64,000 nt of DNA from Verrucomicrobiota bacterium (GCA_018814445.1 JAHIZV010000237.1:49729-113728), one strand, 5' to 3'; positions 4,524-60,500 are shown, counted from the stretch's first letter. Numbers and translations are program-made. The notes: a model not told the origin generated them from the letters alone.

Positions 4524-5788
4524 CAGAATCTCCTCCCGCCCTCAACACTCACCGAGTACCCGCTGATATCAATCGTCAACTCGTTCGGACCGATACTCCC
4601 CTTGAACTCATCGGGCACCCAGTCGTACCCGCCTGTCAGGACGGCGAACCAACTCTCGCCAAGTGCCACTTCCACACCCCCATGAAGTCCGAGACCGAAC
4701 AGCACATCGGATTCACACAGATCGTCCCGCCAACTTCCGAGGGTCGACGTCTGCCCGTTTTCCTCCGCCATCCATATCTCCCTACGATCGGCTTCGACAT
4801 CGACCAGATTCATGGAAACAATCGGGTTCAGGAAGAACGTCAAACCGCCTCCCGTCATCCACGTGAATTGAGGACCAATCCACAGCTCCAGGATCTGTGC
4901 TTCCACGTCAAAAGACACCTGATTGTAGGCCGTGATCCGGGAACTCGATCCGCCGCCGGCCGTGTAGTCCAACACTGCGCCGACCACATCCAACGACTCG
5001 GGGCGATTGGGAATGAGCGGTGATGGCGGAGGCCAGCCATCAAGGCTACCGGCGTACGGAGGCGAAGGAGGAACCACCCCCATCAAGTCATAGGTATATG
5101 TGGAGTCCTGAACGTAAGACACCGAGCCGCCTGTCCTGGTTCTGCTGATCTCTTCTGCGTACGGGGCCGCATTGAGATCAGACTCAATCCCCGGGAACCA
5201 TGTCACGCCCATGCGCAGATCGAAGGAGAAGCCCTCGTCTCGTTTGAGTCCGAGCGTTGCGCTAAGGTCGACGCCCAACGCGTCAAGATCGTCATCCAGA
5301 GAAACCGCGCTGCTCCACAACTCATCAATCGTCGTTCTCTGCTGCGATGCGCTCAACTGGAACATATCGTTGCGATGGAAGGTCAATGTGTCGGCTATGG
5401 GACTGTACTGACCCGCATTGTCATATCCCCAGTACCACGTGTCCCCGTCGTTCGGCGTTCCCGCGTCCATGAACACATACCCGTCATCGAACTGCCTGTC
5501 GGCATACTGCGTGATGTCATCAAGCGTCGGCACGGTGTACTGAAGACCCGAGTTACCGGCCGACGCGGCATGAAGCCCGTTCATCTGTACATACGACGAA
5601 CCCTCAATTTCCAGTCTCATGCCCGCGCGATAGGCGAGGCCCGCGGAGAAGCGCCAAGCGTCCGCCACGCTTCGCGTCGGCGCTAGAACAAACAACAAGA
5701 AACCAACAAGAAACAACGCATAACGGACGGGGAGCCGCGTTCCAGTGCTTGAGCGTTGATCGTTATCAGTTGATAGTTGAGCGTTCAT
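4523..5788 (-). CDS. Putative outer-membrane β-barrel protein
   Basis: ATG at 5786-5788 with a GAGGAAA RBS. Signal peptide MNAQL...LFLVGFLLFVLAPTRSVADA. Alternating amphipathic composition and a C-terminal ...SVEGGRRF ending in an aromatic residue are typical of outer-membrane β-barrels. Its start overlaps the upstream stop as ATGA. Confidence 0.6.
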   Translation of the reverse strand: MNAQLSTDNDQRSSTGTRLPVRYALFLVGFLLFVLAPTRSVADAWRFSAGLAYRAGMRLEIEGSSYVQMNGLHAASAGNSGLQYTVPTLDDITQYADRQFDDGYVFMDAGTPNDGDTWYWGYDNAGQYSPIADTLTFHRNDMFQLSASQQRTTIDELWSSAVSLDDDLDALGVDLSATLGLKRDEGFSFDLRMGVTWFPGIESDLNAAPYAEEISRTRTGGSVSYVQDSTYTYDLMGVVPPSPPYAGSLDGWPPPSPLIPNRPESLDVVGAVLDYTAGGGSSSRITAYNQVSFDVEAQILELWIGPQFTWMTGGGLTFFLNPIVSMNLVDVEADRREIWMAEENGQTSTLGSWRDDLCESDVLFGLGLHGGVEVALGESWFAVLTGGYDWVPDEFKGSIGPNELTIDISGYSVSVEGGRRF

Positions 5789-23644: not shown

Positions 23645-23816
23645 CCGTCAGAATTCCAGGCTGGTAGACCTGTAGCCACCTTAGAGGATGCAGAGGAGAA
23701 GTGATAGCCCGGATGCAGAAAGAAGGAGTTGACCCGGACCGTCTTCGGCGCAGACTTCCAATGCTTGGAACTTTTTCTCAGAAAACTTCCAAGGTATGGA
23801 AGTTTCCGGGTACGAT

Positions 23817-41747: not shown

Positions 41748-41903
41748 CTCATGATCTCTTTACTTCGATTTTGCGGCCTCTTATATTAGAAAGGTAGTTC
41801 TCATTTTTGCGATTCAATAAAGCTGTTCCGGGGCGAATCTTACAGCAGGCGTATTTGGGGTACAGGTCAATGATGTTACTCCTTCTTGCGCATAGGGTAT
41901 AGC

Positions 41904-44900
41904 ATGAGAAAGACAGCAGTCTATTTGGCGATGCTTGTTATCCCTCTCCAGGGATTTGCTCAGCTGAAGATCAATGAAGTCTACTACAACGTCACACCGC
42001 AAGGCGGGAATCAGTTTGTCGAACTGTACAACGCCGCCTCTTCAAACCTGTACCTGGACGGTTTGATCATAACGGATGAGGCAGGCACGGGCGTCGAGGG
42101 CATCTACAAGTTCCCCGGTGATCCAGGAGAAACCAATTACCCCGTCACACCCGGTGAGTACGTGATGATCGCGGTGGACGCAAAAGACGCCACGTCCAAC
42201 GCCCATTGGGAGTGTTACGCGCAAGGCGCCGACTCCGACAACCCGCTTGTCCCTAACCTCGAACTGGTCAGCGGGGTTACCGACCTCGCGCTCTACGGAA
42301 ACGGTGATAATCTGATCCTCGCGGACGGAACGGATACCAACGCACCGATCGACCATTCAACTATCATCGACGGCATGAACTACGGCGGCGGAGGCGGAGA
42401 ACTGGCTCCGCTTTCTTCCTCTGCACCCGACACCGATCCGTCGGTCATCGCCTCGTCTAATTTCTCGCTTGGAAGGTGTCCCGACGGATGGGATCTCGAC
42501 GCAGCCAGCTCATATGACTTCATCGAACTGTCGCCCACGCCGGGTGCCGCGAACGCATGCGAGACACCAGTGTTCAGCGTGCAGGATGTCAGCCTCAACG
42601 AGGGCGATTCGGGAACTTCCGAGGCGATGTTCACAGTTACGCTGTTGCCCGCGCCAACGCAGAATGTGTCGGTAACACTGTCGACTGCTGACGGGACGGC
42701 CACGGCGGGAAGCGACTACACGGCAGTAGCAGCAACGGCACTCGTGTTCACCGCGGGAGTAACCCAGCAGACATTTGATGTTTCCATTCTTGGTGACACA
42801 CAGACTTCAACGAATGAGATCTTCTACCTGAATCTCAGCAATCCGACGAACGGCATGATCACGGACTCCCAGGCTGTATGCACCATTCTGAACGATGATG
42901 GCATATCCATGTTTTCGATCAATGACTCTTCCATCCTGGAGGGCGATTCAGGAACAGTGAATATGCCCTTTGCAGTGAGCCTGTCGCCGCCCTCGGAACT
43001 CACTGCACGGGTTACGTACTCCACATCCAACGGTACGGCAAGCGCGGGAGCGGATTTCACTGGCATTGGCGGTCTGCCCCTCCAGTTCACGGCGGGCGTC
43101 ACGTCGCAGACCTTTTCGATTTCAGTCATTGGAGATACCACTGATACGGCGGACGAATCCTTCTACGTCCATCTCAGCGGACCCACCAATGCAGCCATCG
43201 ATGACGGAGATGGCATCGGAACCATCATAGATGACGACGGTATTCCGATCGTGTCGGTCTCCGACACCAATATCATGGAAGGTGACTCGGGGACAACCAA
43301 CGTTGTCTTCATAATCACGCTTAACAGAACTAATGACTCCGCGACTTCCATCAATTTCGCAACTTCGGACGGCACCGCTGAGGCAGGTCAGGATTACGTC
43401 GCCGTTGCCGCGACAACCCTTGTATTCTCTGCCGGCATCTCAACACAAATCGTGGAAGTTGACGTCCTTGGAGACACACTCGCCAGCGGAGATGAGATAT
43501 TCTATGCCGTTCTCTCCTCCCCGACCAATCTGCTCCTGCTCGACAATCAAGGCGCATGTACCATCATCAACGACGACGGAACAAGCAGCGTAGTGATCGC
43601 AAACGTCAATATTAACGAAGGCAACACCGGGACCAGCAATATGGTGTTTGCCGTCACGATGAGTGCGGAAAACGAGAGCGATGCCTCGGTCAATTATCTT
43701 ACTCAGGACGGATCGGCAAAGGCGGGCTCCGACTACATTGCCATAGGCGAGACAGCCCTGATCATACCGGCCGGAGAAACGGTAACGTCGATTACTGTTC
43801 AGGCTGTCAGCGACGCTCTGGCCAGCCCGCACGAATACATGGTCGTGAACCTGGTAAATCCAACGAACACCACCATCGCAGACTCTCAGGCCTCCGGGTG
43901 GATATTCAATGATGACGGCAGTTCCGCATTCTCGATCAACGATTCTTCTGTAGACGAGGGCGATTCAGGCACAACCAACCTGCCGTTCACCATCACGCTG
44001 TCTCCCGGCAACGAGGACGAGACATCCGTGGTATTTGCATCATCCAACGGCACCGCCCTGGCCGGCAGCGACTACACTGCCGTGGCGCCCACCACAGTAT
44101 TGTTCAGCGCCGGCACACTGAATGCAGTTGTAGACGTCGAAGTCCTGGGCGATACGGACATCGAAGCCAACAAGACATTCTTCGGCCTCCTCTCATCTCC
44201 GGTTAACGCCTCCATCAGTGACGCCCAGGGCGTCGCGACCATCCTCGATGATGACGCGGGAGCAACAGTCTCCGTATCCGATGCGAGCGCCCTGGAGGGC
44301 AATGCGGGTACCACCGGCCTCACCTTCATGATCACTCTTTCTGAACCCGCAGGAGGAGGAGAATCGATCAACTTCTCCACCGACGACGATACGGCCCTCG
44401 CGGGATCGGACTATACGTCTATCGCGACAACCACGCTGGTCTTCTCCGGGGGTTCAACTGCCGTCGCAGTAGAGGTGACGGCTTTTGGCGATACAGCCGC
44501 CAGTGAAGACGAAACCTTCTTCCTTAATCTTTCCTCGCCAACAGGCCTCGTTGTGGGCGACAGCCTGGCAACCGGAACGATCATCAATGATGACGGGACC
44601 TCCTCCGTGTCGATTGCTGACGCCTCGCTGCCCGAGGGCGATGCCGGGACCGCGGACATGACTTTCACGTCGACGCTCAGCGTCGCCAACGAGAATGACG
44701 TCTCGATCAACTACGCCACCAGTGACGGGTCGGCCTCCTCAGGCACGGATTACACGGGCGTGAGCAGTTCCCTTGTCTTCACCGCCGGGGCAACAAGCGA
44801 GACCTTTTTCATCTCCATTATCGGCGATGAGCTGGCCACCACCAATGAGTCGTTTACCATTGATCTGTCATCCCCGACCAACGCGCTCATTGACGACGGA

Positions 44901-45494
44901 CAGGCAACCGGAACGATCATCAACGATGACGGGACCTCCTCCGTGTCGATTGCTGACAATGCCATGCTGGAAGGCGACTCAGGAACAGCCAACCTGTCCT
45001 TTGCCCTGGAGATACTGCCCGCCGCCGAAGACTCCGCCTCGGTGACCTACTCTACCGCAGATAACACTGCACTCGCCGGGACCGATTATGTGGCCATCGT
45101 ATCAACACCCTATGTCTTCGCAGCCGGTGACACTTCCGGGGTTATCAACGTCGCAGTCATGGGCGACGGAACAGAGGAAAGCCCTGAGACCTTCTTTGTT
45201 AATCTGACAAGTCCCACGAACGCAGTCATCGCAGATGGCCAGGCGACCGGCGGCATTACCGATGACGATGACAATATGTTCACACTTTCAATCGACTACA
45301 ACTTGCCGGGGAACATCGCGACGGTGAACTGGGATTCCGTTGTTGCTGAAACCTACTACATCCAGTTCTCAACCAATCTTTACTCGGGAATTTGGAGCAA
45401 CCTGACAAGCCTGACAGCAGTCGGACCGACCTCGACCGCAGTAGATGCAACCGGTTCAGTAACATCCCGCTACTATCGCGGACTCAGGGAGTAG
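41904..45494 (+). CDS. Secreted protein with N-terminal lamin-tail-like domain, at least 8 Calx-β repeats and a C-terminal FN3-like domain
   Basis: ATG at 41904 with an AGGGTA RBS (the tracked ORF starts at a TTG at 41886). Signal peptide MRKTAVYLAMLVIPLQGFAQ. LTD-like segment LKINEVYYN...NQFVELYN. Repeated units xSVxDxSxxEGDSGT...YxTxDGTAxAGSDY...GDTxxExxExFxxxL...GTIxDDD. C-terminus ...SRYYRGLRE. Confidence 0.75.
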   Translation: MRKTAVYLAMLVIPLQGFAQLKINEVYYNVTPQGGNQFVELYNAASSNLYLDGLIITDEAGTGVEGIYKFPGDPGETNYPVTPGEYVMIAVDAKDATSNAHWECYAQGADSDNPLVPNLELVSGVTDLALYGNGDNLILADGTDTNAPIDHSTIIDGMNYGGGGGELAPLSSSAPDTDPSVIASSNFSLGRCPDGWDLDAASSYDFIELSPTPGAANACETPVFSVQDVSLNEGDSGTSEAMFTVTLLPAPTQNVSVTLSTADGTATAGSDYTAVAATALVFTAGVTQQTFDVSILGDTQTSTNEIFYLNLSNPTNGMITDSQAVCTILNDDGISMFSINDSSILEGDSGTVNMPFAVSLSPPSELTARVTYSTSNGTASAGADFTGIGGLPLQFTAGVTSQTFSISVIGDTTDTADESFYVHLSGPTNAAIDDGDGIGTIIDDDGIPIVSVSDTNIMEGDSGTTNVVFIITLNRTNDSATSINFATSDGTAEAGQDYVAVAATTLVFSAGISTQIVEVDVLGDTLASGDEIFYAVLSSPTNLLLLDNQGACTIINDDGTSSVVIANVNINEGNTGTSNMVFAVTMSAENESDASVNYLTQDGSAKAGSDYIAIGETALIIPAGETVTSITVQAVSDALASPHEYMVVNLVNPTNTTIADSQASGWIFNDDGSSAFSINDSSVDEGDSGTTNLPFTITLSPGNEDETSVVFASSNGTALAGSDYTAVAPTTVLFSAGTLNAVVDVEVLGDTDIEANKTFFGLLSSPVNASISDAQGVATILDDDAGATVSVSDASALEGNAGTTGLTFMITLSEPAGGGESINFSTDDDTALAGSDYTSIATTTLVFSGGSTAVAVEVTAFGDTAASEDETFFLNLSSPTGLVVGDSLATGTIINDDGTSSVSIADASLPEGDAGTADMTFTSTLSVANENDVSINYATSDGSASSGTDYTGVSSSLVFTAGATSETFFISIIGDELATTNESFTIDLSSPTNALIDDGQATGTIINDDGTSSVSIADNAMLEGDSGTANLSFALEILPAAEDSASVTYSTADNTALAGTDYVAIVSTPYVFAAGDTSGVINVAVMGDGTEESPETFFVNLTSPTNAVIADGQATGGITDDDDNMFTLSIDYNLPGNIATVNWDSVVAETYYIQFSTNLYSGIWSNLTSLTAVGPTSTAVDATGSVTSRYYRGLRE

Positions 45495-45565
45495 GCTCTG
45501 GCGCGATCCAAGTGGAACTGCTGCGGCAAAACGGCGCGGCCAGCCATGGAATTGCCTTATACCGT

Positions 45566-48500
45566 CTAGAACGAGCCGGCTTCGTAGTATTCCCACACGA
45601 TTCGATACAACCTGCGCTCACGGTTTGTGGACTCGACATCCTGATAGAAGAAGTCGCCGCCGATGTCCGAGAGGAAGTTGGCATCCTGATTCACGCCCGG
45701 GCCATCCATGGCATTGGACCACGTGGTACTGTTTTCAGAATACTGCACCTGGTATATCTCATCCCATGCTCCCCGCCACTTGATCTGGCGGAGGCCGCTG
45801 GCCTTCTTGATTTCAGAGATGGCGAACTCACCGAAGAAAAGCGCCGCACGGTTGTCGTTCGTATCCACGTAAACGACTCCGTTTGTCTCGCCGATGAACC
45901 TCCACCACGCTTTGTAGGAGTTGTGACTCGGCGTCGGCTGCCAGATGATATACTCTTGATAGACATCCACAGCGGTGTCCAGGTCGATCCACGAATCACC
46001 GTCATCGCCGGAGTACTGAATCCGGACTTTGAGATTTGTGGGTATATTGACGGCACTCCATATAAGCGGCCACGTGCTGTTGGTTTCACTGATTTTGACG
46101 GAGTTGTTCCACGTGCGAACATACTGAATCACATTCGTGTTGCTCTTGCTCGCGTAGATCGTGTTCCCGTACGCACCCATGTTGACCCGATTCGCATTTG
46201 TTTCCGGTTCATCGGCGTAGTCCGAATCAGGATTACCCTTGTCGAGAGCCCACGCGTCACTCGTATCACTGGTCACCCAGCCAACTCCGTCAACGTATCG
46301 TCCGCCACGCGATTTGAGATGGAAGTCCCCGCCCGTCGCATCTGCAATGCCGGCGTTGGTGAGGGCGCTTCGATAGTCGTGCCCTACGGCGAGCTGCCAG
46401 GGCAGGAGTTGCTTGTAGGAACTGCCATCCTTGAAGATGAAGGCATTTGTTTGAAGATCATACACGTTGTAGTCGATGAAGACATTGAAGGGCGTTCCCC
46501 CAACAGCCGCCACCGATCCCGTGCTGTGGTTGAACTGGAAGATGTTATTCTGTATGACACCGTTCACGCTGCCGTTATAGACATGATACTCGGGGCGGCC
46601 GGCGAAGGTGTTGTTCTCGATTGTGAAGTCACTGCCCGAAAACACCCTGACTCCCCTGCCCCAGTTATTCCAGAACCGGCCGTTCCTCACTGCAAGCGTC
46701 GTGCTATTCGACGCTACAACGGCGACACGATTGCTGACGAAAAGGAGCCCTTCCAACGTGGCGTTTTCGCTGTAGTCGAGACTCACGGCCGCTCTCGCAT
46801 TTCGCAACGCCAGATCCTGAAAGGTGACGCGCGAGCCGAATATCTTCAACCCGACTCCAGTGGACGTGTTCTGACGGTCCAGCACGGCGCCTCCGGCGGC
46901 GAAATTTGTACTGCCTCTGACCATAACGTCACCATAGTCATCATCACCCCCGTCGGACCATATAAAGGTCGTCGCGGTCGGAAGAGTGTAGACGCCGGTG
47001 TCGATGTAGACCGTATCGCTTCCTTCCATGTCATATGTATCGAGTACCCGCTGGAGCGAATCCATCGGTGTCGCCGGAGTCAGACCATCCGCAAATGCAG
47101 AGCCAATATCCGTGGCGAATACGTCGTTGTTGGTAGAGCCGTCGTTCACATAGAACTTGCGGATGTCGTTTCTCACTGCAAAGATGTTATCGACTTCGTC
47201 GAATATGTTCGTATCTGAATCAAGCACGACACGCCAGAGAGCGAATACACTGGATGTCACCAGCGTTGTATCCCACGAATACTGATTGGTGCTACTGAGA
47301 ACTCCGAAGGCGAACGAAGTCCAGGTCAACCCGTTGTTCGGAGAGTAGTCGAGCCTCAGTGTGTCACCTCCACCCAGGTTACCTGACCTCCACCAAATCG
47401 TGTTTGTGCCCTTGAGAACGCCGCCATCGTTAATGGTCACGGCCAACAGCCATTTATTTGTCAGGCTTTTGCTCGCTTCACTCGTATTGCCATACGCGCC
47501 GATGTTAATCCGTGGGCCTCTTGGCGTCAGTTCGTTCGTGTACACGGAATCGGGATCACCGGCATCGATGAGCGGCGAATGTTGAGCATCGACAACAAAG
47601 CTTCCTCCGGAATATCGCCCTTCTATGCTTTTAGGGTGGAAATCTCCTCCCGCCTCGCTGGCGAATAGCGGCTCGTGCGAAAGGCTGTGCTCTTCCAACC
47701 CTGACTCTCGCTGCCAGTAGATTAGTTTTTCCCAGTTTCCGTTTACGATGCCATTCTTATTCCCTATCCAGGCGTTGTTGCGGGCAATCAAGTTGTTGTA
47801 ATCGGAGGACAGACTCCCCGCGGCCAGCAACACGCAGAACTTGTCTGTACCATCCGCAATGACAACGCTGTTCTTCATCGTCACACTCGACAACCCCCGC
47901 TGGATGAGCTGTGACGCACCCGAAATCTTGAGAGTCGCATTCCTCAATCCCACGTTTTGACTGTTGATGACGTGAACAGCCACCGTATCAGACCCGTAAA
48001 CCAACGCATTCCGGATATCGATCAGGAGGCAGCTCTGCAGGTCAATGTGGCCATTCTTGAGATGGACGCCTCGAATTGTCGCATTTGTAGTCGCCCCGAT
48101 TTCCAGATCTCCGCCATTGACCATGAGATTGTTGATCGTCTTTCCCGTACCCGATATCTTGACCGTCCCGTTTGTGACCGTGATGTTGTTCAGAACGGTG
48201 CCGTTGGCCTCGCCGACCAGATTGCCGCCGTCCAGATACATGTCGGAAACGGTGATGTACGAACCTTGAAGTTTCCAGAAGTCGCTGCTTCCGGCATCGT
48301 TCTTGAACACGGAAGGTACTTCTCCGGTGCTTCCCTGAACAACGACCGGAATACCGGCGAGTCCTTGATCGGCAACCGTGTGCAGAATCTTCTCGCCTAC
48401 ATTGTAGTATCCGGCATCGACCAGAATCGTGTCCCCTTCAGCCACAAGCCACTGCTCCAGAACATCCGACATGGAATCGAGCGGCGCAAACGCAAAGATC

Positions 48501-51500
48501 CCCAGGTTGCTGGCCGAGCCTGTTGTTGTCGTATAGATATCACCGTTGGTGGAGCTGTCATTAAGGTAGTAGAAGAACGGCCGGTTTCGCAGGGAGAACC
48601 TGGAATCCGTCATATCCTCGACGTTCGTATCGCTGTTGAGGACAATCCTCCACCGTCCAAGCCGGCTGGAAGGCCACTTCTCATTGCCGGTCTCCTCTGT
48701 GTCACTGATCCAGGCATACTCTCTGTCTCCAATGGCCACATTATTCGCGATTGAGGTCCATGTAATGCCGTTGTCGTAGGAGTAGTCCAAACTCACCTTG
48801 TTTGTCGCGGGAATAGCCGCGCTTCCCCATACCAGCAGAAACGTCCCCTCCAATTGACCGCCGCCCGACGCCGTAATGGCATACACCCACGCGTTCGTGC
48901 GGCTCATGCTCGCTTCACCGGTGTTGCCGTAAAGACCGATATTCCTCCGGCTCCCATTCGGCGCCGGCTCCCTCGAGTATGGAAACGTTGGATTCGCCGT
49001 ATCGATCAGGAATGAGGTGTTCGTATCGCCGGTGACATGGTTCGTCACGGCAGGATCAAACCGGCCGACCTCACTGACCAGATGGAAATCTCCGCCCGCT
49101 GCGTCATAGAATCCCGGGTTGACGGTCAGACTGTGCGTATCCTGGCCGGAAACCTTTGTCCATTGCGGCAAGCCTTTATATTCGACGCCATTGAAGTAGA
49201 CATAGGTTGCACCATTCTGAATATACAGATCGTTGTAGTCCGCTTTTATCGTGGTGTTCGTATTGAGAGTGTAGCAGAAGGATTCAGGTGCGCGGGCATG
49301 CACAACGGAGTGCCTGACCTCGATATTTCCAAGATTGGCCGCCACGGCGTCGGCCGTGTTGGACCAGAATACGCATGAGTAGAAACGATTCGACGTTGAG
49401 GTGATAGAGCCCACTCCACTTTTCTTGCCGGAGACAAGAATGTAGTCGAAATTGTTGTGAGACGCCTGCGACAATGCGATTCCCGAGCCGTTGCCACCTG
49501 TGATGCTGAGATTGCTGGCCACACAGTAGCTTGCCTGAAAGAGTCGGACGCCGTTCGTACCGCCGTCGATGACAAAATCGGACAGCTCGATATACGCGGT
49601 CACATTCAGATTAAACATCGCCGACCCGGAGAAGTTCGACGACGGTTGGAAAACAGTTCCCCCGGCCGCCAGGTTCGTGCTGCCGAGCATTCTCACGCGC
49701 CCGGCGGCAGTTCCCTTATCACCGGACGTAACAAGCACCTCGTTCGTCAGGGGGTAGACTCCTGTGTCGACAAGGATCTTATCTCCCGCGAGAAGCTTGT
49801 ACTGGTCAAGGACCGCAGAGATGCTGCACATCGGAAATGCCGGGCTGGTACCGGGGTTGCCGCAGTTACCAACCGACAACGCATATATATCTCCGTTAGT
49901 CGAGTTGTCATTCACGTAGAAGATGAAGGGGCCGCACCGAACGAACAGATCCGTGCCCGATACGTCGATAATGTTCGTATCGCTCTCGCTTACCACACGC
50001 CAGCGCCCAATGGGAGTCGAAGGCACGATGCATGGATCCAAAGTCACGCCCGTACTGAATACCGATGTGTTCGTGGCGAGCGCCTCAGACCAACTCAATC
50101 CGCCGTCGGTCGAGAACTGCACCTTGACTTTGTCTGAAGGCGTGAAGCCACGGCTTAGCCAGTAGAGAGTCACGGCCTCACCTATGCTTCCTCCGTCGTC
50201 GAGAGACACAGCGAGAAATTCCTTGTTGGTGGGCGACTTACTCGCCTCGCTCGTTCCTCCATAGATACCCAGGTTCGCACGGAAACCATTCGGACTGGGT
50301 TCATTCGCGTAGGGCGAAGTGAAGTTGGCAGCATCGATCGCCCAGGACGAAATGGTATCGTTTGTGAAGGAATCTGTTAGCGGCTCATACCTGCCCGCCG
50401 TGCTTCTGAGGTGGAAATCACCGTTCGTTGGATTGACAAACAGAGGATCACCCAGACGGGAATGGTAATCTGCGCTGCGGTCAGTCTGCCAGTCGAGCAA
50501 CGTTTCGTATTCAATCTTCTTGAATGTGTCATTCGCAAGCTTGCTGACTTTATCCGGATGCAGAAGGTTGTAGTCGCCGCTCACCGAACCCGCCTGCCCG
50601 TAAACATAGATGTAGGTACCCGTCTGGTAGGCGTGAAGTATCGAGTTATTCACCGTCAAGCCGGCACGAACTGACACCGCCCCATTGCGGTTGGACCAGA
50701 TGACACAGTGGTTCATGGCCAGGGGCTGAGAATGACTGACACCGTAACCGTTGTTATCCCACGAAGCGCAATGTTCAAAGACCAGCCCCTGATTCAGACC
50801 GAAGCTGAACCCGTTTGAAGAGTTCCCGTAGCTTTCAATCCAACTGAGCTGGCAGCCCTCGGTGCCGGACATCGCGACACCGATGCTGGCGCCCGTAAAT
50901 CGAATGTGATCCATCTCAATGAAACGTGTTTCGGTGACCTGGAGCCCGTATCTTGTCAGATTCGTTCCGGCCCTGTGAATCACCGTTCCGCCGCAGCCTG
51001 CTGAGTTGTTCGTACTGCCATGGATCATGATCGGGAAGTTGGATGATCCTCGGGAAAGGGCGCCGATGACCCAATCATTCGAGATCATGTAGGTGCCGGT
51101 GTCTATGTAGATCGTGTCTCCCTCCCGAATACTGAAGTTCTGGAAGGCGGTAACCGGGCTGTCCAAAGGTGACGAAGGATCCAGGCCTGAGTTACCCGGA
51201 TCGCCCGGGGCCGTGGCGAATACATCGCAGTTGGTGTCACTGTCGTTGATGTAGATCGTGATAGGATTGTTCCGAATGGAAAAGCTGTCATCAACAGCGT
51301 CCCAGGTATTCGTATAGTCCTCAAGCACTACTCTCCACTTCGCGGCAGACACGGCGGGTTGACTGGAAACATTCCACGTCTGCTCTCCAAGCGAGGCAAG
51401 TTGGTTCGTCCTGAATATGGTCCATTCGACGCCGTTGTTCAGCGAGTACTCAAGTCGGACCGTGTCATCCGTTGCTATTCCGCCGGCAGCCCAGGTCAGG

Positions 51501-54500
51501 CGCACGACACCTTTCACGAACCCTCCATCGTTCACGGATATAGCCAGCACCCACGGGTTGGTCTTGCTCATGCTTGCTTCGTAGGTATTCCCATATCCGC
51601 CCAGATTGATTCTCGTCCCTCTTGGAGCAGGCTCATTTGTGTAGACCGCTGACGGATCCCCCGTATCTATCAACGGGGAGTGTTGAGCGTCCTGAACAAT
51701 ATTGGTTCCGCTGCGACGGCCGGTCACGCTCTTCGGATGAAAGTCTCCACTTACAGTGTTCGCGAACAGAGGCTTATGACTGAGACTATTCTCGTCCTGA
51801 CCGGTTCCGTCCGACCAGAAGATCAACGTCTCGTACAGATCGTTTCCGCCTGTGAACTTCTCCTTCTCCGCTACTATCGCCCCATTTGTGCGAACCAGGT
51901 TGTTGTAGTCCGAAGTAACGGAGCCGCCGATACCCATGTCATAGATTCGAGAACCCGAACCCGACGCCTGCAGGACGCTGTGCCGGAACGTCCCAAGGCC
52001 CTGCTCAATGCTTGCGGCATTCTTGTTATTCCAGACGACGCCCTGGTTCCAATTGAGCGCCCCCTCGGTTGAGACGCCGTTCAGGCCATTGTCATACGAG
52101 AAACAACGGTCGAACGTGCCGACCGAGAACTGATCCAGAAGGAAGCCGTTCGCACCGTTGTTGTGGCTCTTCACATTGACGCCACGCGCACGGGAACGGG
52201 TCATCTTCAGACCGTCTCCACCATTTTTCAGCTTCAGGTCGCGTAATTCAACATCGGCGACGCGGTAGAGGTGGATAGCGGACACGCTGCCGGTTCCCAA
52301 CTGGCGATCGAAAACCGTCCCCGTTGTGGAAATGTTAGTACTCCCCTGGATAATGACGGGGTTATTGGTTGACCCGGAATCAAGATCATCGATCGTGATG
52401 TCCGTATCCACATCGTACTCACCGGTGTCCACGTAAACTATGTCTCCCGGCTGCAGATCGTAGGCGTTCAGTATGGCCTGGAGCGATTCCTTGGGAGCAA
52501 GCGGTGTATAGCCAAGGTTGTCGTCATCGCCAAGCCCCAGAGTGAACACATCCCCTGCGGACGCACCATCATTCACGTAGTACTTGATGAGTCCGCCGTT
52601 GCGCAGGCCGAAGAATGCCCCGTTGGTCTCGGTCAGTCCCGCCTGGTCCTCACTTGAGATGCGCCAGAGACCTACCGGTGTGCTGCTGTAGCCCGTGGAA
52701 TCCCACAGATACTCACCGAAAGAGGCCGAGACACCTGACGTCAGATTACTCCACGTCATCCCCGCATCTCCGGAGAAATCGATGGTCACCGTATGACCGG
52801 TTGCATCGCCCCCCGCAGTCCACCGAAGGGTTATCTGGTCCTCGCCGAATCCACCCGTGTCAAATGTAATCGGTTGAATCCACGCATTCGTCGGCGTCTT
52901 GCTGGCCTGATCCGTGTTCCCGAAGAGGCCTATATTGAGCCGCCCCCCATTGAACAGAGGTTCCTGAGCGTAACTCGAAGCCGGATTGCCCGCATCCAGC
53001 AGGCGAGAGGGAGACTCGAGACTGTTGGTGATAAACACCGATGAACTTATGTCGTACCGGCCGGCCGGACTGCTGATGTGGAAATCAGCGTTCTCACCGT
53101 CCGTGAACTGCGGATCCACGGCCAGCGAATGTTCGTCATACCCGAGTTCCGACACCCAGGCAGACACCGTCGCGTATCGCGTGGTACCGCTCCCCGCGAA
53201 ACCGCCCAGCACCGCCCCGGCCTGCGCCCCATTCTCGAGATAGATGTTGTTGTAGTCCGCGGTCATGGTCCCGGACACATGAAGGTAAGCAAACTGGTCA
53301 CTGCCGTCGGCCACGATGATGCTGTTTCCAAAGCCAAGTGTTCCCGATTCCTGCTTCGCTCCATGTGTGTTCTTCCACATCACACCATGGTCCCATGTTA
53401 CTCCATATGACTGATCCGCGAAGAAGCCTGCATCGCTGTTTTCAAACGCAATACAGTGATTCATGGTGAACCGCGAGGATCTGTCGATCCAGATGCCTAT
53501 TTCACCGCCGTCGCACATTACCCACTCAGCAAGACAGTCATCCGATTTGTAGACCCAGATTCCGGCTTCCGCACTCCTGATCACAAGATCGCGGAAACCG
53601 ATACCATCCGCTTCATCAAGGTGTACTCCATAGCCCGAACCAAAACGCACAAGGACGGTTTTGCTAACGTCATTTGTGCTGCCCTGAATCGTCACCCGTT
53701 CTGAAGGAGTCCCGCCGTCAAACTCATCGATAAGAATCTCCTGAGAAAGAAGGTAGTTGCCCGTATCGACATATATCGTATCGCCCGGTTCCAGATCATA
53801 CGTATCGATGATGGCCTGAATACTGAGTTTCGGCTGATCGGTTGAGAAACCGTGGTTCGTGCTGTTGCCCAACGCTTCAGTATATACGTCGCCCGCCTGA
53901 GAAATGCTGTCGTTAACATAGAAGCTCAAGGGGTCGTTTCTCACGGCAAAAGGCTTCTCGGTCATGTCAAAGATGTTGGTGTCCGTCGTACTTCCCACTT
54001 TCCAGCGGCCGAAGATTGAAGACTCGACCAAGGTGGTGTCCCAGAGTAATTGGCGGTTCGTAGCAGCGATACTGGCCACGACCGTAGTCCAATTAAGGCC
54101 GAAGTCGGGGGAGTACTCAATCGAGACGTTGTGACCGGTTACCGGACCTGAAACCCACCAGTAGATTAGATTCGTGCCTTCCACGCGCCCGCCATCATTC
54201 AGCGACACCGCCGTAAGGCCGGAATTGGCCTCGTTCGTTGTGGTCAGACTGGCTTCCCCGCTGTTTCCGTAGAGTCCCACATTGAGCCAGGCGCCGTTGG
54301 GAGGTGGCTCCGCGGAATAGGCGCTTCCGGGCCGACCTCCATCGAGCAGCGGAGAATTCACCGTGTCATTGGTATACGACTTTGTGGCGGGAACATAGCG
54401 CCCACCTTTGCTCTTCAGATGGAAGTCCCCTGCCGGGGCTGATGTAAAACGAGGATCACCACCGTAGGAATGAGCATCCTCTCCGTAGTCGCGCACCCAG

Positions 54501-57500
54501 CGGGAGAGCGTCTGGTAAATGGTATCAGGTGAGCCCGGAGTGTACAGTCCGGCATAAGCTCCGTTCGTCAGGAACACGCAGTTGTAGTCTGAAGACAGAT
54601 CGGCCTGACTCGAATTGATGACATAGGCATAGTCACCGGCTCCGGACACGCCGATAACGCTGTTGGACATGAACAAGTCGGCATTGCCCATTTCAACGCC
54701 GATCGCGTTGAACCAGATCACTCCATTCTCCCATATCGCGTCCGATGTCGTGATGCTGAGTCCTGCGTCACTCGCGCTTCTGGCCACACAATGCCGCATG
54801 ACACAACCATCTGACTGCTGCATGTAGAAGCCATTCTCAGACGAATTCGCTGTGACCCATTCCAGCAGGACGTTGTCAGCAAGGTTCAGGCTGACGCCAT
54901 TCTTGCCTCCAACCACGGTGACATTACGAATGTTGACGCCGTCTATGCCGTTCAGATAGAAGCCGTGAGAGACAGAGGAGAGCTGATTGAATACCGTTCC
55001 TGAAGAGGCCGTATTCGTACTTCCCTGAATCGTGATCGGCTCCGCCGGCGTGCCATCGTCAAACTGATCGATTGTGACGGCCTGGTTGAGGGTGTAAGTA
55101 CCCGTATCCACATAAACCGTATCGCCCTCTTCCAGGTCGTAGCGGGTGAGAAGATTGATGAGCGACGCCATAGGCGACGATGCAGTGACTCCCGTGTTTG
55201 TCGCATGCCCCAGGGCCGTGGCATAGACATCACCGTTGGTCGTGACGCTATCGTTGACATAGAATAAAAGCGGTTCATTTCTCAAGGCAAAGGTTCTATC
55301 TGTCGCGTCATAGAGGTTTGTGTCGCTGTCGCTCACGACGCGCCACATACCCAGTGCGGAGGACTGGAATTGGGTCGTTCCCCATGAGTAACATCCAAGA
55401 TCGGCATCGACCCCGGTCACGATCGAGGTCCAGCTGACGCCGCCATCGGCCGAGTACTCAAGCGAGACAGTATCGCCCGTAACACTTCCAATAGCCCGCC
55501 AGCAGATATCCTGAACTCCTTCCGTCCGCCCCCCGTCGTTCAGCGATACTGCGATAAGGAACGAGTCGGCTTCATTGGTCGGCGAAAGGCTTGCCTCCGT
55601 TGTGTTGCCGAACATACCGATATTGACGCGGGAGCCGTTCGGCAACGGCTCATTTGTGAATGCGGATGCGGGATTTCCGCTGTCGATCAGCACCGAGGTC
55701 AAAAGATCGTTCGTGTAGACGCCCGTAGAAGGATCGTATCTTCCCTCCACGCTCGCGGGATGGAAGTCACCACTCGATGAGTCAGCGAATCGCGGGTCGT
55801 GACTGAGACTGTGTTTGTCCTGATGGAAGTCCCTGACCCAGCGTGACACCGTTTGGAAGACCTGGTCGGGCGAGGCATTGCTGCTGCCCGCATAAGCTCC
55901 GTTCGTCAGGAAGATGTTGTTGTAGTCGGACACCAGATTTCCGGAAGCGAAGTAGTAGGCATAGCGCCCGGAACCAGAAGCGAAGATCAGCGTGTTTTCT
56001 ACGGACAGATCTCCCTCACCGTCAGGATTCGACTGCTCCCAGACTCCGTAGGCATTATTCCACAACACGCCATGGGTCCAAGTAACATTGGTCGAATTAC
56101 CTCCGTGATAAAAACCCCAGCTTGAGCAATCGATTGCCGACGAGCGGCTGAAATCCACATTGTGCGATTTCTTTACTTCGAACCCGCGGACACAGTCTAC
56201 GGCCTGCACTGCATCCACGGTGACAAAATGGGCCTCTTCCAGCTCGAAGGCAGTGGAAGCGTTTGAAACGGTGATATTCCTGAACTCATAGCCCTGAACC
56301 GTATCGAGATGGAAGCCGTATGACTGAATCACAGATCCTCCCGCGCCGGCATTCGTACTGCCCTGCACCAGGATCCTGTTGGTCGCACTGCCCGTGTCGA
56401 ACGTTCCGATTTCGATGACTCCGGACTCAGGGAACTTACCTGTGTCGATGAATACATTGTCGCCCGGCTCCAGGTCATAGTTGTTGAAGACGGTCCGCAC
56501 ACTCAATGCCGGTTCCGAAGGTGAGACACCCGCGAATGCACCGGATCCCGCGGCACTGCAAAATACGTCTCCGTTGGTGGAACCGTCATTCACATAGAAA
56601 GAAAGTGGCTCGTTCCTCAACGCGAACGAGATATCCGTGTCGTCAAAGACCGAGGACTGCTCACTCGCGACACGCCACATCCCGCGAGCGGTTGACGGGT
56701 AATTTGTCGAGTTCCAGTAGTAGACCCCGTTTGTCGCAGGAATGTTAGTTGCCACGGTCAAGAATGATGCTACCGCATCAGTAGAGAAACGAATCGCAAC
56801 CGTATCAGCAATTGAAGCGCCCCCGGCAATCCAGTACAGGGGGACGTTTGTTCCTTCGGTCCTGCCTCCATCGTTAAACGACACGGCAACGAACCATCCG
56901 TTTGTCGGAGTAATACTCGCTTCCGCCGAACCACCGTACTGCCCTATGTTTCTACGCCCGGCATTGTTCGGAGGTTCATTGGAGAAGGATGCCTCAATGG
57001 CTCCCGCATCGAGCAGGACAGACGTTTCCGTGTCGAAGACCGTCCCGGCAGTCGTGTATCTTCCGCCCTGGCTCTTCGGATGGAAGTCCACAGCGGATCC
57101 CAACGTCAGTTTGGGATTATGCGATAACGTGTGAAGGTCGTTGCCGGATGAACGCGCCCACAAAGACACACTGGGTTCAATCACTCCAGTGGGCGCACGG
57201 TACGCGACGTATGCACTGTTCTTCAAGTGGTAGTCGTTGTAATCCCCGTACACGTTCCCGGAATTGATATAGTGAGCGTATCGTCCAGTCCCAAACGCGC
57301 CTATCACACTATTGCTAAAGGTCAGTTTTCCGCCGTTCAGATATACACCGTACAGATTCGACCACAACACACCGCTATCCCAGAAGGCCGACGTGTTATT
57401 GGTGGTAAAGATCGACAGCCCCGCTTTGCTGGCTTCCGATGCCGAGCAGTGGTCGAACATCGTGTTGGTGGCAGCGTGGACTCTGTAGCCAACGACACCG

Positions 57501-60500
57501 TCTTTCACGTTCACCCACTCGGCTCCGCAGTCTGCCGTTCCGTAGAAGAGCAGACCGGTCGTGGTATTCTCAATCGTCAGATGCTTTATCCTTATGCTGG
57601 ATGTGTTTCGAACAGTGATTCCGCGCTTCCCGCTTCCTCCATCCAGCACAGTCGCGCGTCCGAGCGGCGAATTCGCGCCTTGTATGACGATGGGGTTCGT
57701 CGCCACTCCGACAAGATCACTGGCAATGGCCAGATCGTCTGAGAGGATATACGTTCCGCTGTCGACCAGTATGACTTCGCCGGCCCTTATGCTGTATCTG
57801 TCAAAGACCTGCTGAATAGTCGCGAGCGGTTTATTGCTGGTCACGCCGCTGTTCAGAATACTCCCGGGAGCTTTCGTGTAGACATCGCCGTTCGTCGAGG
57901 AATCGTTCACAAAATACGTGAGCGGCTCGTTATTGATGATGAAGGTCACGTTGCTGAGAACGGGCGAGATGCCGAAGGTGTTCGTGTCCGTATTGCTGAC
58001 GATCCGCCATTTGGCCTCGGGAACGGATGCGAAGGGAGTCGAGTCGAACAGATAGGAACGCACACCCTTCGGAATATTCGTACTGATGTTGGTCCAGCTT
58101 TGACCCGCATCCACAGACAGTTGAAAAGAGAAGCTGTCATTTGTGGCGGTTCCGCCGGCGACCCAGTAGAAGTAGTTCGACCCGCGGAATGTGCCGCCGT
58201 CATTGAGCGTGAGGGCCAGCAACCAACCGTTCGTGCGGCTTAAACTGGCCTCCGAATGGTTCGCGTACAGACCGATATTTGCCCGACGGCCATTCGGCGA
58301 AAGTTCGCGAGCGTAGCTGTCCGCAGGATTCCCCACATCAATCATGGGCGAGGTGACCAGGTCATTCGTTCGCACGCTTGAGCCCGGAACAAAACGCCCT
58401 GCCGCACTCATCGGATGAAAATCGCCCGTTGTCAGATTAGGGAAAAGAGGTTCGTGCGTAAGACTCTGCACGTCTTGCCCCTTCTCCTTGGTCCACGTGT
58501 ACATATTGGCATAACGGTCGCTGCCGAACTTGGCGATCTCGGCAAAATTCTTGGCGAGGATATTGTTGTAGTTCGCCGAATAATCGACTGATCCGCCGAG
58601 GTCGTATGCATAGCGCTCCGTGCCATTGACTAGAACAACAGAATTGCTGAGCCCTATGCTGCCCGCGTTGGCATAAAGGCCCCCGGAAGTATTCGACCAT
58701 ATCACCGAACGGTTGATACGAATCCTGTCGGAACCCGCGGCCCTTATGCCGTAGCCTGCATTCTTCCACGAAAGCACCCGGGAAAGACTCATATTCGTGC
58801 TCGTGTTCAGATCCACACCGTGCGATGCATTGTTCATGGTGCGAATGTTATCGATGTTAATCTGATTTGCGCGGGCGAAGCGCATACCCACATTCGCGTT
58901 CCGCAGAACCAGATTTGAGACGGAAACCAGCGTCGGGGTATCAAACTCAAAAACATACGCTCCGGCGGAGGTGTTGCCGCGATCGAGAACCGATGCCCCG
59001 GAATTTAGATTAGTCGTACCGAATATGCGGACTCGCGCGTTGGTGGCACCGCTGTCGAGGAGTGTGACAACGATATTGGAGCCGTTTGTGTAGACGCCTG
59101 CATCGACATAGACCTTGTCGTTCGGCTCGAGATCATAGGCGGCAAGGGCCGTGGCCAGGGAGTTCAGAGGCTTGGCGGAAGTAGCGACCCAGTTTGTCGG
59201 CGATCCGTTCCCGGTTGTATATTGATCCCCAACCCCCGAGGCATCGTCAATGTAGATACTCAGATTGCCGTTGCGCACGGCAAAGAAGCCGGGTGTCCGG
59301 TCAAAAATGTTTGTGTCGCTGTCGCTGGTAGCCCGCCAGAGGGCCGCAGGCGTATTGCTTACGCTCAACGTATTCCACGCGACAGTCTCATCTGCCGCAT
59401 CCACTCCGTTGTTCAACTCAAACCAAGTGTTTCCGCCATCCACAGACACATCTACTGTGACGGTGATCCCGGTGTCGATGTTCGCGGCAACCCAGTGAAA
59501 CGCCGCCGTGCCTGCCACCCATCCGCCGGAGCGAGGCGAGGCCGCGTGCAGCCACGCATTCGTAACACCTTTGCTGGCTTGGTCCGTATTCCCGTAGAGC
59601 CCGATATTGACCCTTCCCCCATTGAAAGAAGGCTCAGAAGAAAAGGAAGCAGAGGGATTGCCGCTGTCTATCAGCAAAGAGGTCACGGCATCGTTTGTTA
59701 CATAACCTTGGCCCCATACGTACCGCCCCATGGGAGTTACTGTCTTCAGATGAAAATCACCGGTGAGGGGAGCGGCGAACCTGGGATTGACACTCAGGCT
59801 ACGCTTGTCGGAGCCGGTTCGGCTGATCCATGCCGCAAGGGTGTCCTGGTTTCTCTGCTGGCTGACTATATAGCCGACAGCGGCGTTGCTCTCGGCATAC
59901 AGATCGTTGTAGTTGCCGACAATGTTGGTCAGCGTTCCCGCCTGATAACAGCGCGCTTTATGTCCCGACGCCACGACAATGCTGTTGCTGACACCGACAG
60001 AACCGCTGTTGGCCCTGATGCCGGCCGCCCCGTTCCGCCAGATCACATTTCGATCGACGCGCACATTGGAGGAACTGCGCACCCACACGCCGTTGGTCTT
60101 GCTGAGCTGTGTTATGCACCGATGAAGCAAGACATCGGAACTATTCTGAATGTCAAAACCTATGCCGTTGTTTGAGAACGCTTCGACTTCTTTCAGCTCG
60201 ACTTTGTTGGCATTGTAGACTCGGATGCCTCCCGCTCCCCCGGTCGCCCGGATGTTGGAAACACGCACGTAGTTGGCTCCGGAAATGTCTATCGCGTATG
60301 CGCCCCCGACGCCACTGGTACGGTTGAGCACGGTGCCTCCCGCAGCCCTGTTCGTACTGCCGATGATCCGGACGTGGTTGTTCGAATTGCCGGCGTCCGT
60401 GGAGTCAATGACCGTATTGGCCGTCAGATTGAATGTGCCCGTATCGACATAGATAAGATCCTCACCCTCCAGATCGTAAGCGTCCAATATTGCCTTGATG

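What the first reader, a model, noticed from the sequence alone, without database searches (positions are those of the whole stretch)
45285..45790. Shared FN3-like C-terminal domain at the extreme C-terminus of four different large secreted proteins
Four proteins end in a related FN3-like segment. The 5908-aa protein ends ...LRQIKWRGAWDEIYQVQYSENSTTW...RLYRIVWEYYEAGSF. The Calx-β protein ends ...ATVNWDSVVAETYYIQFSTNLYSGIW...SRYYRGLRE. The EEP enzyme (25750-25952) ends ...LRLTWPGVHSNRYVVEHLTEPL...GFYRIRVLQ. The Gly-rich protein (5788-6000) ends ...ITWDEGGSG..GVYLIEFSPVL..NWMPM...GYFRVRKP. All share the pattern [LV]x[ILV]xW ... Yx[VI][QE][FYH][SL] ... [FY][YF]R[IVG]R at the very end of the polypeptide. 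Conserved C-terminal domains shared across otherwise unrelated secreted proteins are typically sorting or anchoring signals, as with T9SS CTDs and PEP-CTERM. This one matches none of the classical signatures.
Basis: partly seen in the sequence, partly recalled or inferred. Interest (0 to 1): 0.55.

Follow-up and report, generated by a model that had tools for sequence, protein, structure and literature searches.

The report
Truncated FN3 module ending secreted proteins
Four large secreted proteins in this window end in the same small domain, a fibronectin-III fold lacking its last strand; it closes thousands of unrelated secreted proteins in Verrucomicrobia-type bacteria, matches no searched family model, and may be a surface-anchoring or sorting tag, though that role is unproven.

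Summary
All four proteins end as quoted. Their pairwise similarity is not significant, but a 313-sequence profile containing no window sequence (it does include orthologues of the EEP enzyme) ranks exactly these four C-termini as the top four hits in the six-frame window: Calx-beta 1e-10, EEP 1e-8, Gly-rich 1e-3, 5908-aa protein 2.5e-3.

The domain is a real, very large family with no Pfam or NCBIfam match. It belongs to the FN3 superfamily. Its consensus lines up with bacterial FN3 through strand F (RFYRVRL against YYYRVRA). The chain then stops, so the FG loop and strand G are missing. Models show six strands.

In Verrucomicrobiota genomes, 19 of 24 independently found copies end within 5 residues of the stop codon. 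For ordinary FN3 in the same DNA the figure is 0 of 14. Carriers are unrelated enzymes and adhesins, mostly with signal peptides.

The module also forms tandem arrays in some proteins. It diverges fast among orthologues, and no partner machinery was found. It is not a T9SS CTD or a PEP-CTERM signal. A surface-retention or sorting role is plausible but unproven.

Verdict: a new variant of a known kind, of moderate interest.

The parts
45261..45494 (+). C-terminal six-stranded FN3-like module of the 1202-aa LTD/Calx-beta protein. It covers the last 77 aa plus the stop codon and ends ...SRYYRGLRE*.
45566..45814 (-). Divergent C-terminal module of the 5908-aa protein. It ends ...RLYRIVWEYYEAGSF* and has a longer E-F loop and a 12-residue tail after the YR motif.
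   Evidence: Translation. The family HMM scores 13.7 bits, E 0.0025, over model positions 12-78. The AF2 model built on the family alignment has pLDDT 72.4 and the same strand order.
25716..25952 (+). C-terminal module of the 718-aa endonuclease/exonuclease/phosphatase protein. It ends ...GFYRIRVLQ* and follows TSP3-like Asp-rich repeats.
   Evidence: The family HMM scores 30.7 bits, E 1.2e-8, though that model includes orthologues of this protein; the HMM built only from unrelated enzymes gives 14.7 bits, E 1e-3. All 89 aligned full-length orthologues keep the module at the C-terminus. Median identity to the window protein is 23% in the module against 64-65% in the catalytic and middle parts.
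5788..6018 (-). Divergent C-terminal module of the Gly-rich giant protein. It ends ...GYFRVRKP*.
   Evidence: Translation. The family HMM scores 14.7 bits, E 0.0012 for the whole segment, with domain iE 0.019. It ranked third with the independent setB model.
41886..45494 (+). Carrier 1: 1202-aa secreted protein with a signal-peptide-like N-terminus, a Lamin Tail Domain, eight Calx-beta stretches and the terminal module.
45566..63292 (-). Carrier 2: 5908-aa secreted giant protein. Beta-helix/NosD-like repeats were found in the last 1000 aa, followed by the terminal module.
23796..25952 (+). Carrier 3: 718-aa EEP-family enzyme with a signal-peptide-like N-terminus, TSP3-like repeats and the terminal module.
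5788..15054 (-). Carrier 4: one reading frame of about 3087 aa (bacterial Ig-like domains plus Gly-rich repeats) with the terminal module. It is interrupted by a single in-frame TGA at 7396-7398.

Best explanation
Shown. The four C-termini belong to one very large domain family that is unannotated in the Pfam and NCBIfam copies searched. It is an FN3-superfamily beta-sandwich of about 70-78 aa that keeps strands A, B, C, C', E and F. It retains the conserved Trp, Tyr, Trp and the Y-x-R-V strand F motif. The chain ends 4-6 residues after strand F, usually in ...FYRVxLxP-COOH, so the FG loop and strand G of ordinary FN3 are absent. The canonical form is concentrated in Verrucomicrobiota, and the window carries divergent copies. 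The window organism's closest labelled relatives are called Verrucomicrobia, Opitutae, Lentisphaerota and Kiritimatiellia. In genomes the usual arrangement is one copy at the very end of a signal-peptide-bearing protein whose other domains are unrelated from protein to protein.

Inferred. After Sec export the module acts as a common handle that keeps or places these enzymes and adhesins on the cell envelope. I think non-covalent attachment to an envelope component or partner protein is the most likely form. The strand F edge left uncovered by the missing G strand is a candidate docking surface. Tandem copies in some adhesin-like proteins would raise avidity or reach, as with other repeated wall-binding modules. 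No step of this mechanism has been observed directly. The confidence of 0.4 refers to this inferred mechanism; the identity of the domain (the 'shown' part) I hold at about 0.85.
For: Family membership:
- Profiles built without window sequences pick the four C-termini as the top four window hits.
- An exhaustive profile search found 27,313 cluster representatives at E <= 1e-3 and 1,349 at E <= 1e-10. This count includes cross-hits to ordinary FN3.
- Of the top 150 hits, 94 are this type. In 70 of those the last module ends exactly at the C-terminus, and the last residue is Pro in 60.

FN3 relationship and the missing strand:
- The family consensus ...VTLTWSAVPGKTYRVQYSTNL..NWTDL...RFYRVRLLP aligns with the bacterial FN3 consensus ...ITLSWTAVTGATGYRVERS....WTTI...YYYRVRA-INAAGTSAYSAVVSATT. 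The family stops where FN3 continues.
- The best PDB sequence hit is the gp130 FN3 domain, E 0.005, aligned over strands B to F only.
- The AF2 model has six strands at pLDDT 88.7.
- The tandem period is 70-89 aa, against 80-99 aa for ordinary FN3 arrays.

Position:
- In 850 kb of mostly Verrucomicrobiota-labelled DNA, 19 of 24 module copies that were not used as seeds end within 5 aa of the stop. Ordinary FN3 gives 0 of 14.
- 98 of 99 seeded ORFs carry a single copy.

Cargo diversity and export:
- Cargo in and near the window includes EEP nuclease, alpha-amylase and metallophosphatase.
- Cargo in the genome loci includes S1/P1 nuclease, NHL, Kelch, LTD plus Ig, DUF11 and GH57 plus CBM.
- A crude signal-peptide test is positive for 35 of 50 carriers against 81 of 180 control ORFs, p = 0.002.

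Taxonomy:
- The DNA pattern for QRFYRVxLxP-stop found at least 120 loci where I estimated about 4 by chance. Nearly all are Verrucomicrobiota.

Retention:
- All 89 aligned EEP orthologues keep the module at the C-terminus even though its sequence drifts to 23% identity.
Against: - No partner, receptor or processing gene was identified. The window's neighbours are housekeeping genes: mreBCD, rodA, PBP2, the fab genes, RNase G, TrmFO and RimO. Clustering the neighbours of 120 loci gave nothing recurrent.
- The conserved residues are the ordinary FN3 core, so nothing in the sequence points to a specific binding site.
- The module evolves much faster than its cargo. This fits a loosely constrained accessory domain.
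- Some copies are internal and followed by other domains.
- The six-strand claim rests on predicted models and alignment, not on a solved structure.
- The signal-peptide test is a crude heuristic with a 45% background rate.
Confidence: 0.4

Rival explanations
1. It is an ordinary accessory FN3-like domain that serves as a stabilising cap, spacer or generic adhesion unit, with no sorting or anchoring role. The C-terminal bias would reflect how the module spreads: as a 3'-terminal cassette that ends with a stop codon and is easily added to genes.
For: - The conserved positions are exactly the FN3 fold signature.
- The family profile cross-hits ordinary Pfam fn3 arrays.
- The module forms tandem arrays like other FN3 and Ig spacers.
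- It diverges fast among orthologues, at 23% identity against 64-65% for the catalytic and middle domains.
- No machinery was found.
Against: - A spacer has nothing to space at the very end of a chain.
- Ordinary FN3 in the same genomes is never terminal (0 of 14), whereas this type is terminal in 19 of 24 copies.
- All 89 aligned EEP orthologues retain it despite the sequence drift.
- The same truncation after strand F is kept across thousands of proteins.
Confidence: 0.3
2. It is a true secretion signal: a functional analogue of the T9SS C-terminal domain. It would be recognised in the periplasm by a dedicated outer-membrane translocon specific to these bacteria, and possibly cleaved off afterwards.
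For: - The outward properties match T9SS CTDs. It is a beta-sandwich of about 75 aa at the extreme C-terminus of many unrelated Sec-dependent proteins.
- It is lineage-restricted, occurs several times per genome (four copies in this 64-kb window), and has poor sequence conservation.
- T9SS itself is reported only from the Bacteroidetes/FCB group (abstracts of PMC5445135 and PMC12398890, listed). A different route would therefore be needed here.
Against: - Tandem arrays and some internal copies are not expected of an export signal.
- No candidate translocon gene is linked to the module.
Confidence: 0.2
3. It is a chance resemblance: four unrelated beta-rich C-termini that happen to share W...Y...YR.
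For: Pairwise BLASTP E values are 0.09-2. Leave-one-out HMMs fail to recover the omitted member.
Against: Profiles built without window sequences rank the four C-termini first to fourth in the window, with E from 1e-10 to 2.5e-3. Models of the best and of the weakest-scoring member (by E-value) have the same six-strand order.
Confidence: 0.03

Closest known systems
Fibronectin type III domain (Pfam fn3, PF00041; FN3 superfamily)
   Same: - Same core signature: strand B Trp, strand C Tyr, and the strand F motif Y-x-[FV]-R-V.
- The family profile cross-hits genuine fn3 arrays.
- The Calx-beta copy scores 13.8 bits on a bacterial FN3 model built here from those arrays.
   Different: - PF00041 does not detect it, in the window copies or in consensus-like copies.
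- It is about 12-18 residues shorter. The chain ends after strand F, giving six strands instead of seven.
- It is overwhelmingly at the extreme C-terminus, whereas ordinary FN3 in the same genomes is internal.
- The canonical form is concentrated in Verrucomicrobiota.
T9SS C-terminal sorting domains (type A TIGR04183 / Pfam Por_Secre_tail; type B TIGR04131)
   Same: It is a small beta-sandwich at the extreme C-terminus of many unrelated Sec-dependent secreted proteins. It is lineage-specific, has many carriers per genome and shows low sequence conservation.
   Different: - No match to any NCBIfam or Pfam model.
- It can be repeated in tandem.
- The hosts are Verrucomicrobia-type bacteria, whereas T9SS is described as restricted to Bacteroidetes/FCB (abstracts of PMC5445135 and PMC12398890).
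- Cleavage and lipid or LPS attachment are unknown.
PEP-CTERM / exosortase and related short C-terminal sorting signals (TIGR02595 and relatives)
   Same: These are C-terminal tags shared by many secreted proteins in environmental bacteria. From my own knowledge, this includes Verrucomicrobia.
   Different: Those signals are a short motif plus a transmembrane helix plus a basic tail. The window C-termini have no hydrophobic helix and no PEP motif (read directly), and there is no NCBIfam hit.
Incomplete Ig-like fold of chaperone-usher pilins (donor-strand complementation)
   Same: Both are beta-sandwiches that lack the last (G) strand. In pilins this leaves an edge and groove that a strand from another protein fills. 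That is established knowledge for pilins. For this module the missing strand is inferred.
   Different: No sequence or fold-search link to pilins was found. No donor strand or partner was identified. The analogy is a lead only.

Membership tests
FN3 superfamily / Pfam fn3 (PF00041) | Significant match to the PF00041 profile | tested here: not met
   No fn3 hit on the four window proteins or on their isolated C-termini, even at E <= 10. No fn3 hit on consensus-like members either. Genuine fn3 arrays in the same searches were detected with 10-16 stretches.
FN3 superfamily / Pfam fn3 (PF00041) | FN3 beta-sandwich fold with the conserved strand B Trp, strand C Tyr and strand F Tyr motif | tested here: met
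   - AF2 model at pLDDT 88.7.
- The family profile hits the gp130 FN3 domain at E 0.005 over strands B to F.
- The two consensus sequences align motif by motif.
FN3 superfamily / Pfam fn3 (PF00041) | Seven strands A-B-C-C'-E-F-G | tested here: not met
   - Six strands in both models.
- The family consensus ends at ...RFYRVRLLP, where bacterial FN3 continues with about 18 more residues.
- The tandem period is 70-89 aa against 80-99 aa.
This rests on predictions and alignments, not on a solved structure.
T9SS C-terminal domain (TIGR04183, TIGR04131, Por_Secre_tail) | Match to the curated CTD profiles | tested here: not met
   NCBIfam and Pfam scans of the window proteins, of the isolated C-termini and of consensus-like members gave no CTD hit.
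T9SS C-terminal domain (TIGR04183, TIGR04131, Por_Secre_tail) | Located at the extreme C-terminus of diverse proteins that carry Sec signal peptides | tested here: met
   - 4 of 4 in the window.
- 19 of 24 independent copies end within 5 aa of the stop.
- Cargo is diverse.
- Signal-peptide-like N-termini are enriched by a crude test.
T9SS C-terminal domain (TIGR04183, TIGR04131, Por_Secre_tail) | One copy per protein | tested here: inconclusive
   98 of 99 seeded genomic ORFs have a single copy. However, 94 top-scoring proteins carry 338 copies in total, mostly as tandem arrays.
T9SS C-terminal domain (TIGR04183, TIGR04131, Por_Secre_tail) | Co-occurrence with T9SS machinery (PorK/L/M/N, SprA, PorU/V), and removal of the CTD by PorU | not testable with these tools
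   Whole genomes could not be retrieved. No such gene is in the window. The hosts are labelled Verrucomicrobiota or related.
PEP-CTERM / exosortase-type signals | Short signature motif followed by a transmembrane helix and a basic tail at the C-terminus | tested here: not met
   The last 25 residues of all four proteins are polar or beta-like, with no hydrophobic helix (read). No NCBIfam hit.
Donor-strand-complemented incomplete Ig folds (chaperone-usher pilins) | The fold lacks its final strand | tested here: met
   Six-strand models and truncation after strand F. This is a predicted feature only.
Donor-strand-complemented incomplete Ig folds (chaperone-usher pilins) | A partner supplies the missing strand | not testable with these tools
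   No complex prediction was available, and no candidate partner was identified.

The most novel reading that the evidence does not exclude
The G-strand-less FN3 module is the cargo tag of a sorting or anchoring pathway in Verrucomicrobiota, Kiritimatiellota and their relatives that I found no description of. It would be a counterpart of the T9SS CTD system. The exposed strand F edge would be completed by a strand donated from an outer-membrane receptor or anchor protein, by donor-strand complementation. This would fix hundreds of different enzymes and adhesins per cell to the surface.
Probability: 0.2. Interest if true: 0.85.

Novelty: new variant of a known kind. Interest (0 to 1): 0.5.

Why it matters
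How Verrucomicrobia, Kiritimatiellia and their relatives place their large sets of polysaccharide-degrading enzymes and giant adhesins on or outside the cell is, to my knowledge, poorly understood. T9SS is described as confined to Bacteroidetes and its relatives.

A single recognisable C-terminal module would be useful in three ways:
- It gives an immediate bioinformatic marker for the surface and secreted proteome of these ecologically important bacteria. It ends thousands of unrelated signal-peptide proteins in these lineages.
- Through phylogenetic profiling, it gives a direct route to any machinery that reads it.
- A profile for it would fill an annotation gap that now leaves the ends of very many proteins unlabelled.

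A naturally G-strand-less FN3 domain is also a neat case for protein-fold studies.

If the module proves to be only a structural cap, the finding reduces to a new FN3 subfamily.

Tried and rejected
Searches that led nowhere:
- Word-indexed homology searches with the four C-termini and with a 37-sequence alignment found nothing. The domain is too short and too divergent for that index.
I replaced it with a degenerate DNA pattern.
- A metagenome scan for relatives of the last 244 aa of the 5908-aa protein found none. That member's assignment therefore rests on the family profile and a model built on the family alignment.
- The afdb50 fold library was unavailable.
- Four literature searches found no description of this module.
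- Clustering the ORFs that neighbour 120 module loci revealed no recurrent non-carrier gene.

Explanations considered and rejected:
- T9SS CTD: no profile match, a different nearest fold, and the wrong lineage.
- PEP-CTERM-type signals: no transmembrane helix.
- Chance similarity: refuted by profiles built without window sequences.
- The conserved Arg of FYR as a family-specific recognition residue: dropped, because the same Arg is part of the general FN3 strand F consensus.
- TGA-to-Gly recoding for the in-frame TGA: set aside, because it is one codon only.
Full report
**1. What is in the window**

- A 5908-aa protein at 45566..63292 (minus).
- A 1202-aa protein at 41886..45494 (plus), with a Lamin Tail Domain and eight Calx-beta stretches.
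- A 718-aa endonuclease/exonuclease/phosphatase (EEP) enzyme at 23796..25952 (plus).
- A Gly-rich ORF at 5788..7320 (minus).

The finding's coordinates cover the convergent ends of the first two genes, which lie 71 bases apart. By my reading of the sequences, all four start with a signal-peptide-like N-terminus.

One correction is needed. The Gly-rich ORF continues the reading frame of the 2552-aa ORF 7396..15054 after a single TGA, so it is the tail of a protein of about 3087 aa.

The genes lying among and between the four carriers are housekeeping: RNase G, RodA, PBP2, MreD/C/B, Maf, FabF/G/D/H, PlsX, CoaD-like, TrmFO and RimO. The carriers are not in a dedicated island.

**2. Is the similarity more than chance?**

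Not from the four sequences alone. Pairwise BLASTP gives E = 0.09 to 2, and leave-one-out HMMs do not recover the omitted member. Pfam and NCBIfam give no hit on the C-terminal segments even at permissive thresholds.

The evidence came from outside the window. A search with the whole EEP enzyme returned 120 proteins. About 100 are orthologues. Seventeen have quite different enzymes at the N-terminus (alpha-amylase, metallophosphatase) followed by TSP3 repeats. All of these end in the same segment of about 75 aa, closing ...FYRVRLxP.

An HMM made only from those unrelated enzymes ranks the four window C-termini first to fourth among 633 six-frame segments. A 313-sequence model with no window sequence (94 of its sequences are EEP orthologues, so the EEP score is not independent) gives these scores:

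| Protein | Bits | E-value |
|---|---|---|
| Calx-beta | 37.3 | 1.1e-10 |
| EEP | 30.7 | 1.2e-8 |
| Gly-rich | 14.7 | 0.0012 |
| 5908-aa | 13.7 | 0.0025 |

Two members are clear and two are divergent.

A model of the Calx-beta copy is confident: pLDDT 88.7, six strands. A model of the 5908-aa copy on the family alignment is moderate (pLDDT 72.4) with the same strand order. That second test is partly circular, because the alignment guided it.

**3. What the domain is**

An exhaustive profile search of 1.84 billion cluster representatives found 27,313 proteins at E <= 1e-3 and 1,349 at E <= 1e-10. The top 150 fall into two groups:
- Ninety-four proteins carry high-scoring copies (median 37 bits) with a period of 70-89 aa. 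Their last copy ends at the C-terminus, exactly at the last residue in 70 cases. The final residue is Pro in 60.
- Fifty-four proteins carry low-scoring copies (median 17 bits) with a period of 80-99 aa that do not reach the C-terminus. The two of these that were scanned are ordinary Pfam fn3 arrays with 10 and 16 stretches. Pfam does not recognise the five first-group proteins that were scanned.

The family is thus a distinct relative of FN3. Several results agree:
- The family profile's best hit among PDB sequences is the gp130 FN3 domain (E 0.005), aligned over strands B to F only.
- The two consensus sequences show the difference directly. Bacterial FN3 reads ...ITLSWTAVTGATGYRVERS...WTTI...YYYRVRAINAAGTSAYSAVVSATT. 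The family reads ...VTLTWSAVPGKTYRVQYSTNL..NWTDL...RFYRVRLLP and then stops.

**4. Position, cargo and taxonomy**

My own back-of-envelope estimate of the chance expectation is about 4. Nearly all loci are from Verrucomicrobiota: Pedosphaera, Limisphaerales, Chthoniobacterales and Verrucomicrobiia.

The seed pattern forces terminal position, so I counted only other copies in the same 850 kb:
- 19 of 24 other copies end within 5 residues of the stop.
- None of 14 ordinary FN3 domains in the same DNA does.
- 98 of 99 seeded ORFs carry one copy. The tandem arrays that dominate the score-ranked list are therefore the exception in genomes.

The cargo domains are unrelated to one another: S1/P1 nuclease, NHL, Kelch, LTD plus Ig, DUF11 and GH57 plus CBM. 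In and near the window they are EEP, amylase and metallophosphatase.

A crude signal-peptide heuristic is positive for 35 of 50 carriers against 81 of 180 control ORFs (p = 0.002).

The window organism's closest labelled relatives are called Verrucomicrobia, Opitutae, Lentisphaerota and Kiritimatiellia. Its phylum was not pinned down.

Among 89 EEP orthologues the module is always kept at the C-terminus. Its median identity to the window copy is 23%, against 64-65% for the catalytic and middle parts.

**5. How it most likely works**

Shown: this is a lineage-restricted, G-strand-less FN3 module that normally terminates signal-peptide proteins of unrelated function.

Inferred: it is a shared handle for placing or holding these proteins on the cell envelope after Sec export.

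I favour non-covalent retention (confidence 0.4) for four reasons:
- The module is repeated in tandem in adhesin-like proteins, as wall-binding modules are.
- A spacer makes no sense at a chain's end.
- The module is never lost among the orthologues examined.
- The uncovered strand F edge offers a docking surface.

Three rivals remain:
- A plain structural FN3-like cap (0.3). This is supported by the purely fold-type conservation, the fast drift and the absence of any machinery.
- A true export signal analogous to the T9SS CTD (0.2). This is weakened by the tandem and internal copies.
- Chance (0.03).

No partner gene was found, either in the window or by clustering the neighbours of 120 loci.

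**6. Comparison with known systems**

The module works like, but is not, a T9SS CTD. It has no profile match, its nearest fold is different, and it sits in a different lineage. T9SS is described as limited to Bacteroidetes/FCB (abstracts of PMC5445135 and PMC12398890).

It is not a PEP-CTERM-type signal, because there is no transmembrane helix.

It belongs to the FN3 superfamily by fold and core motifs. It fails two defining tests of Pfam fn3: it has no profile match, and it has six strands rather than seven.

The missing last strand recalls chaperone-usher pilins. That is an analogy only.

Four literature searches found no description of this module. The library is incomplete, so prior description cannot be excluded.

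**7. Verdict**

This is a new variant of a known kind: an FN3-derived C-terminal module that is very abundant and has no match in the Pfam and NCBIfam copies searched. Interest is moderate (0.5).

The most novel reading not excluded is a dedicated sorting or anchoring pathway that reads this tag by strand complementation. I put its probability at about 0.2.

Noticed in passing
window 7396-7398 (minus strand): A single in-frame TGA splits one giant gene of about 3087 aa into the 2552-aa ORF and the 'Gly-rich protein'. In the neighbouring copy of the same Gly-rich repeat, the aligned position is Gly, so the change could be GGA to TGA. It may be a nonsense mutation, an assembly or polymorphism artefact, or read-through. 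One codon is no evidence for recoding.
   Followed up: partly
window 4428-4515, 20064-20158 and 33732-33808: There are three palindromic elements, each made of tandem GAACATC heptamers facing their reverse complement GATGTTC. The search found 18 matches to GAACATCGAACATC with up to 2 mismatches, against 0.85 expected. Two of the elements lie at the 5' ends of the secreted-protein ORFs 3300-4523 and 15051-20165, where they produce the odd 'NIEHRTSNIEH' N-terminal translations. The third lies between ORFs 33137-33721 and 33833-34414. They could be hairpin-forming regulatory or repeat elements.
   Followed up: partly
window 4523-5881 (minus strand): This ORF lies immediately downstream of the Gly-rich giant gene and slightly overlaps it. 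It has a signal-peptide-like start (…FLLFVLAPTRSVADA) and ends …GYSVSVEGGRRF, like an outer-membrane beta-barrel protein. It has no Pfam or NCBIfam match. It is a possible envelope partner of the giant protein, but this is untested.
   Followed up: partly
window 25400-25715, and P0104-P0120: In the EEP enzyme, and in unrelated amylases and metallophosphatases, the terminal module is directly preceded by bacterial TSP3-type Asp-rich (calcium-binding-like) repeats ending ...AGT[DN]PxDxxS. The pair may travel together as a two-part C-terminal cassette.
   Followed up: partly
loci L005, L031, L033, L054, L055, L080: Several MAGs titled 'uncultured Bifidobacterium/Bifidobacteriaceae (binchicken ...)' carry canonical QRFYRVxLxP-terminal proteins of the type otherwise seen in Verrucomicrobiota. 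L080 also has a second, non-seed carrier, an S1/P1 nuclease. This is probably mislabelled or misbinned records rather than true Actinobacteria. A few loci labelled Acidoferrum, Binatia and Methylomirabilota also matched.
   Followed up: no
window 2-3016 and 15051-20165 (minus strand): Two other large ORFs in the window do not end in the module. One is a 1704-aa protein with Big_9/cadherin-like and CarboxypepD_reg domains and a signal-peptide-like start. The other is a TSP3-repeat ORF cut off by the window start. The tag therefore does not end every large surface-type ORF here.
   Followed up: partly
window 41886-42330, and locus L019: The Calx-beta carrier starts with a Lamin Tail Domain. A Verrucomicrobiia protein in L019 has the layout LTD, Ig, LTD, terminal module. 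This points to a recurrent LTD-to-module architecture across these phyla.
   Followed up: no
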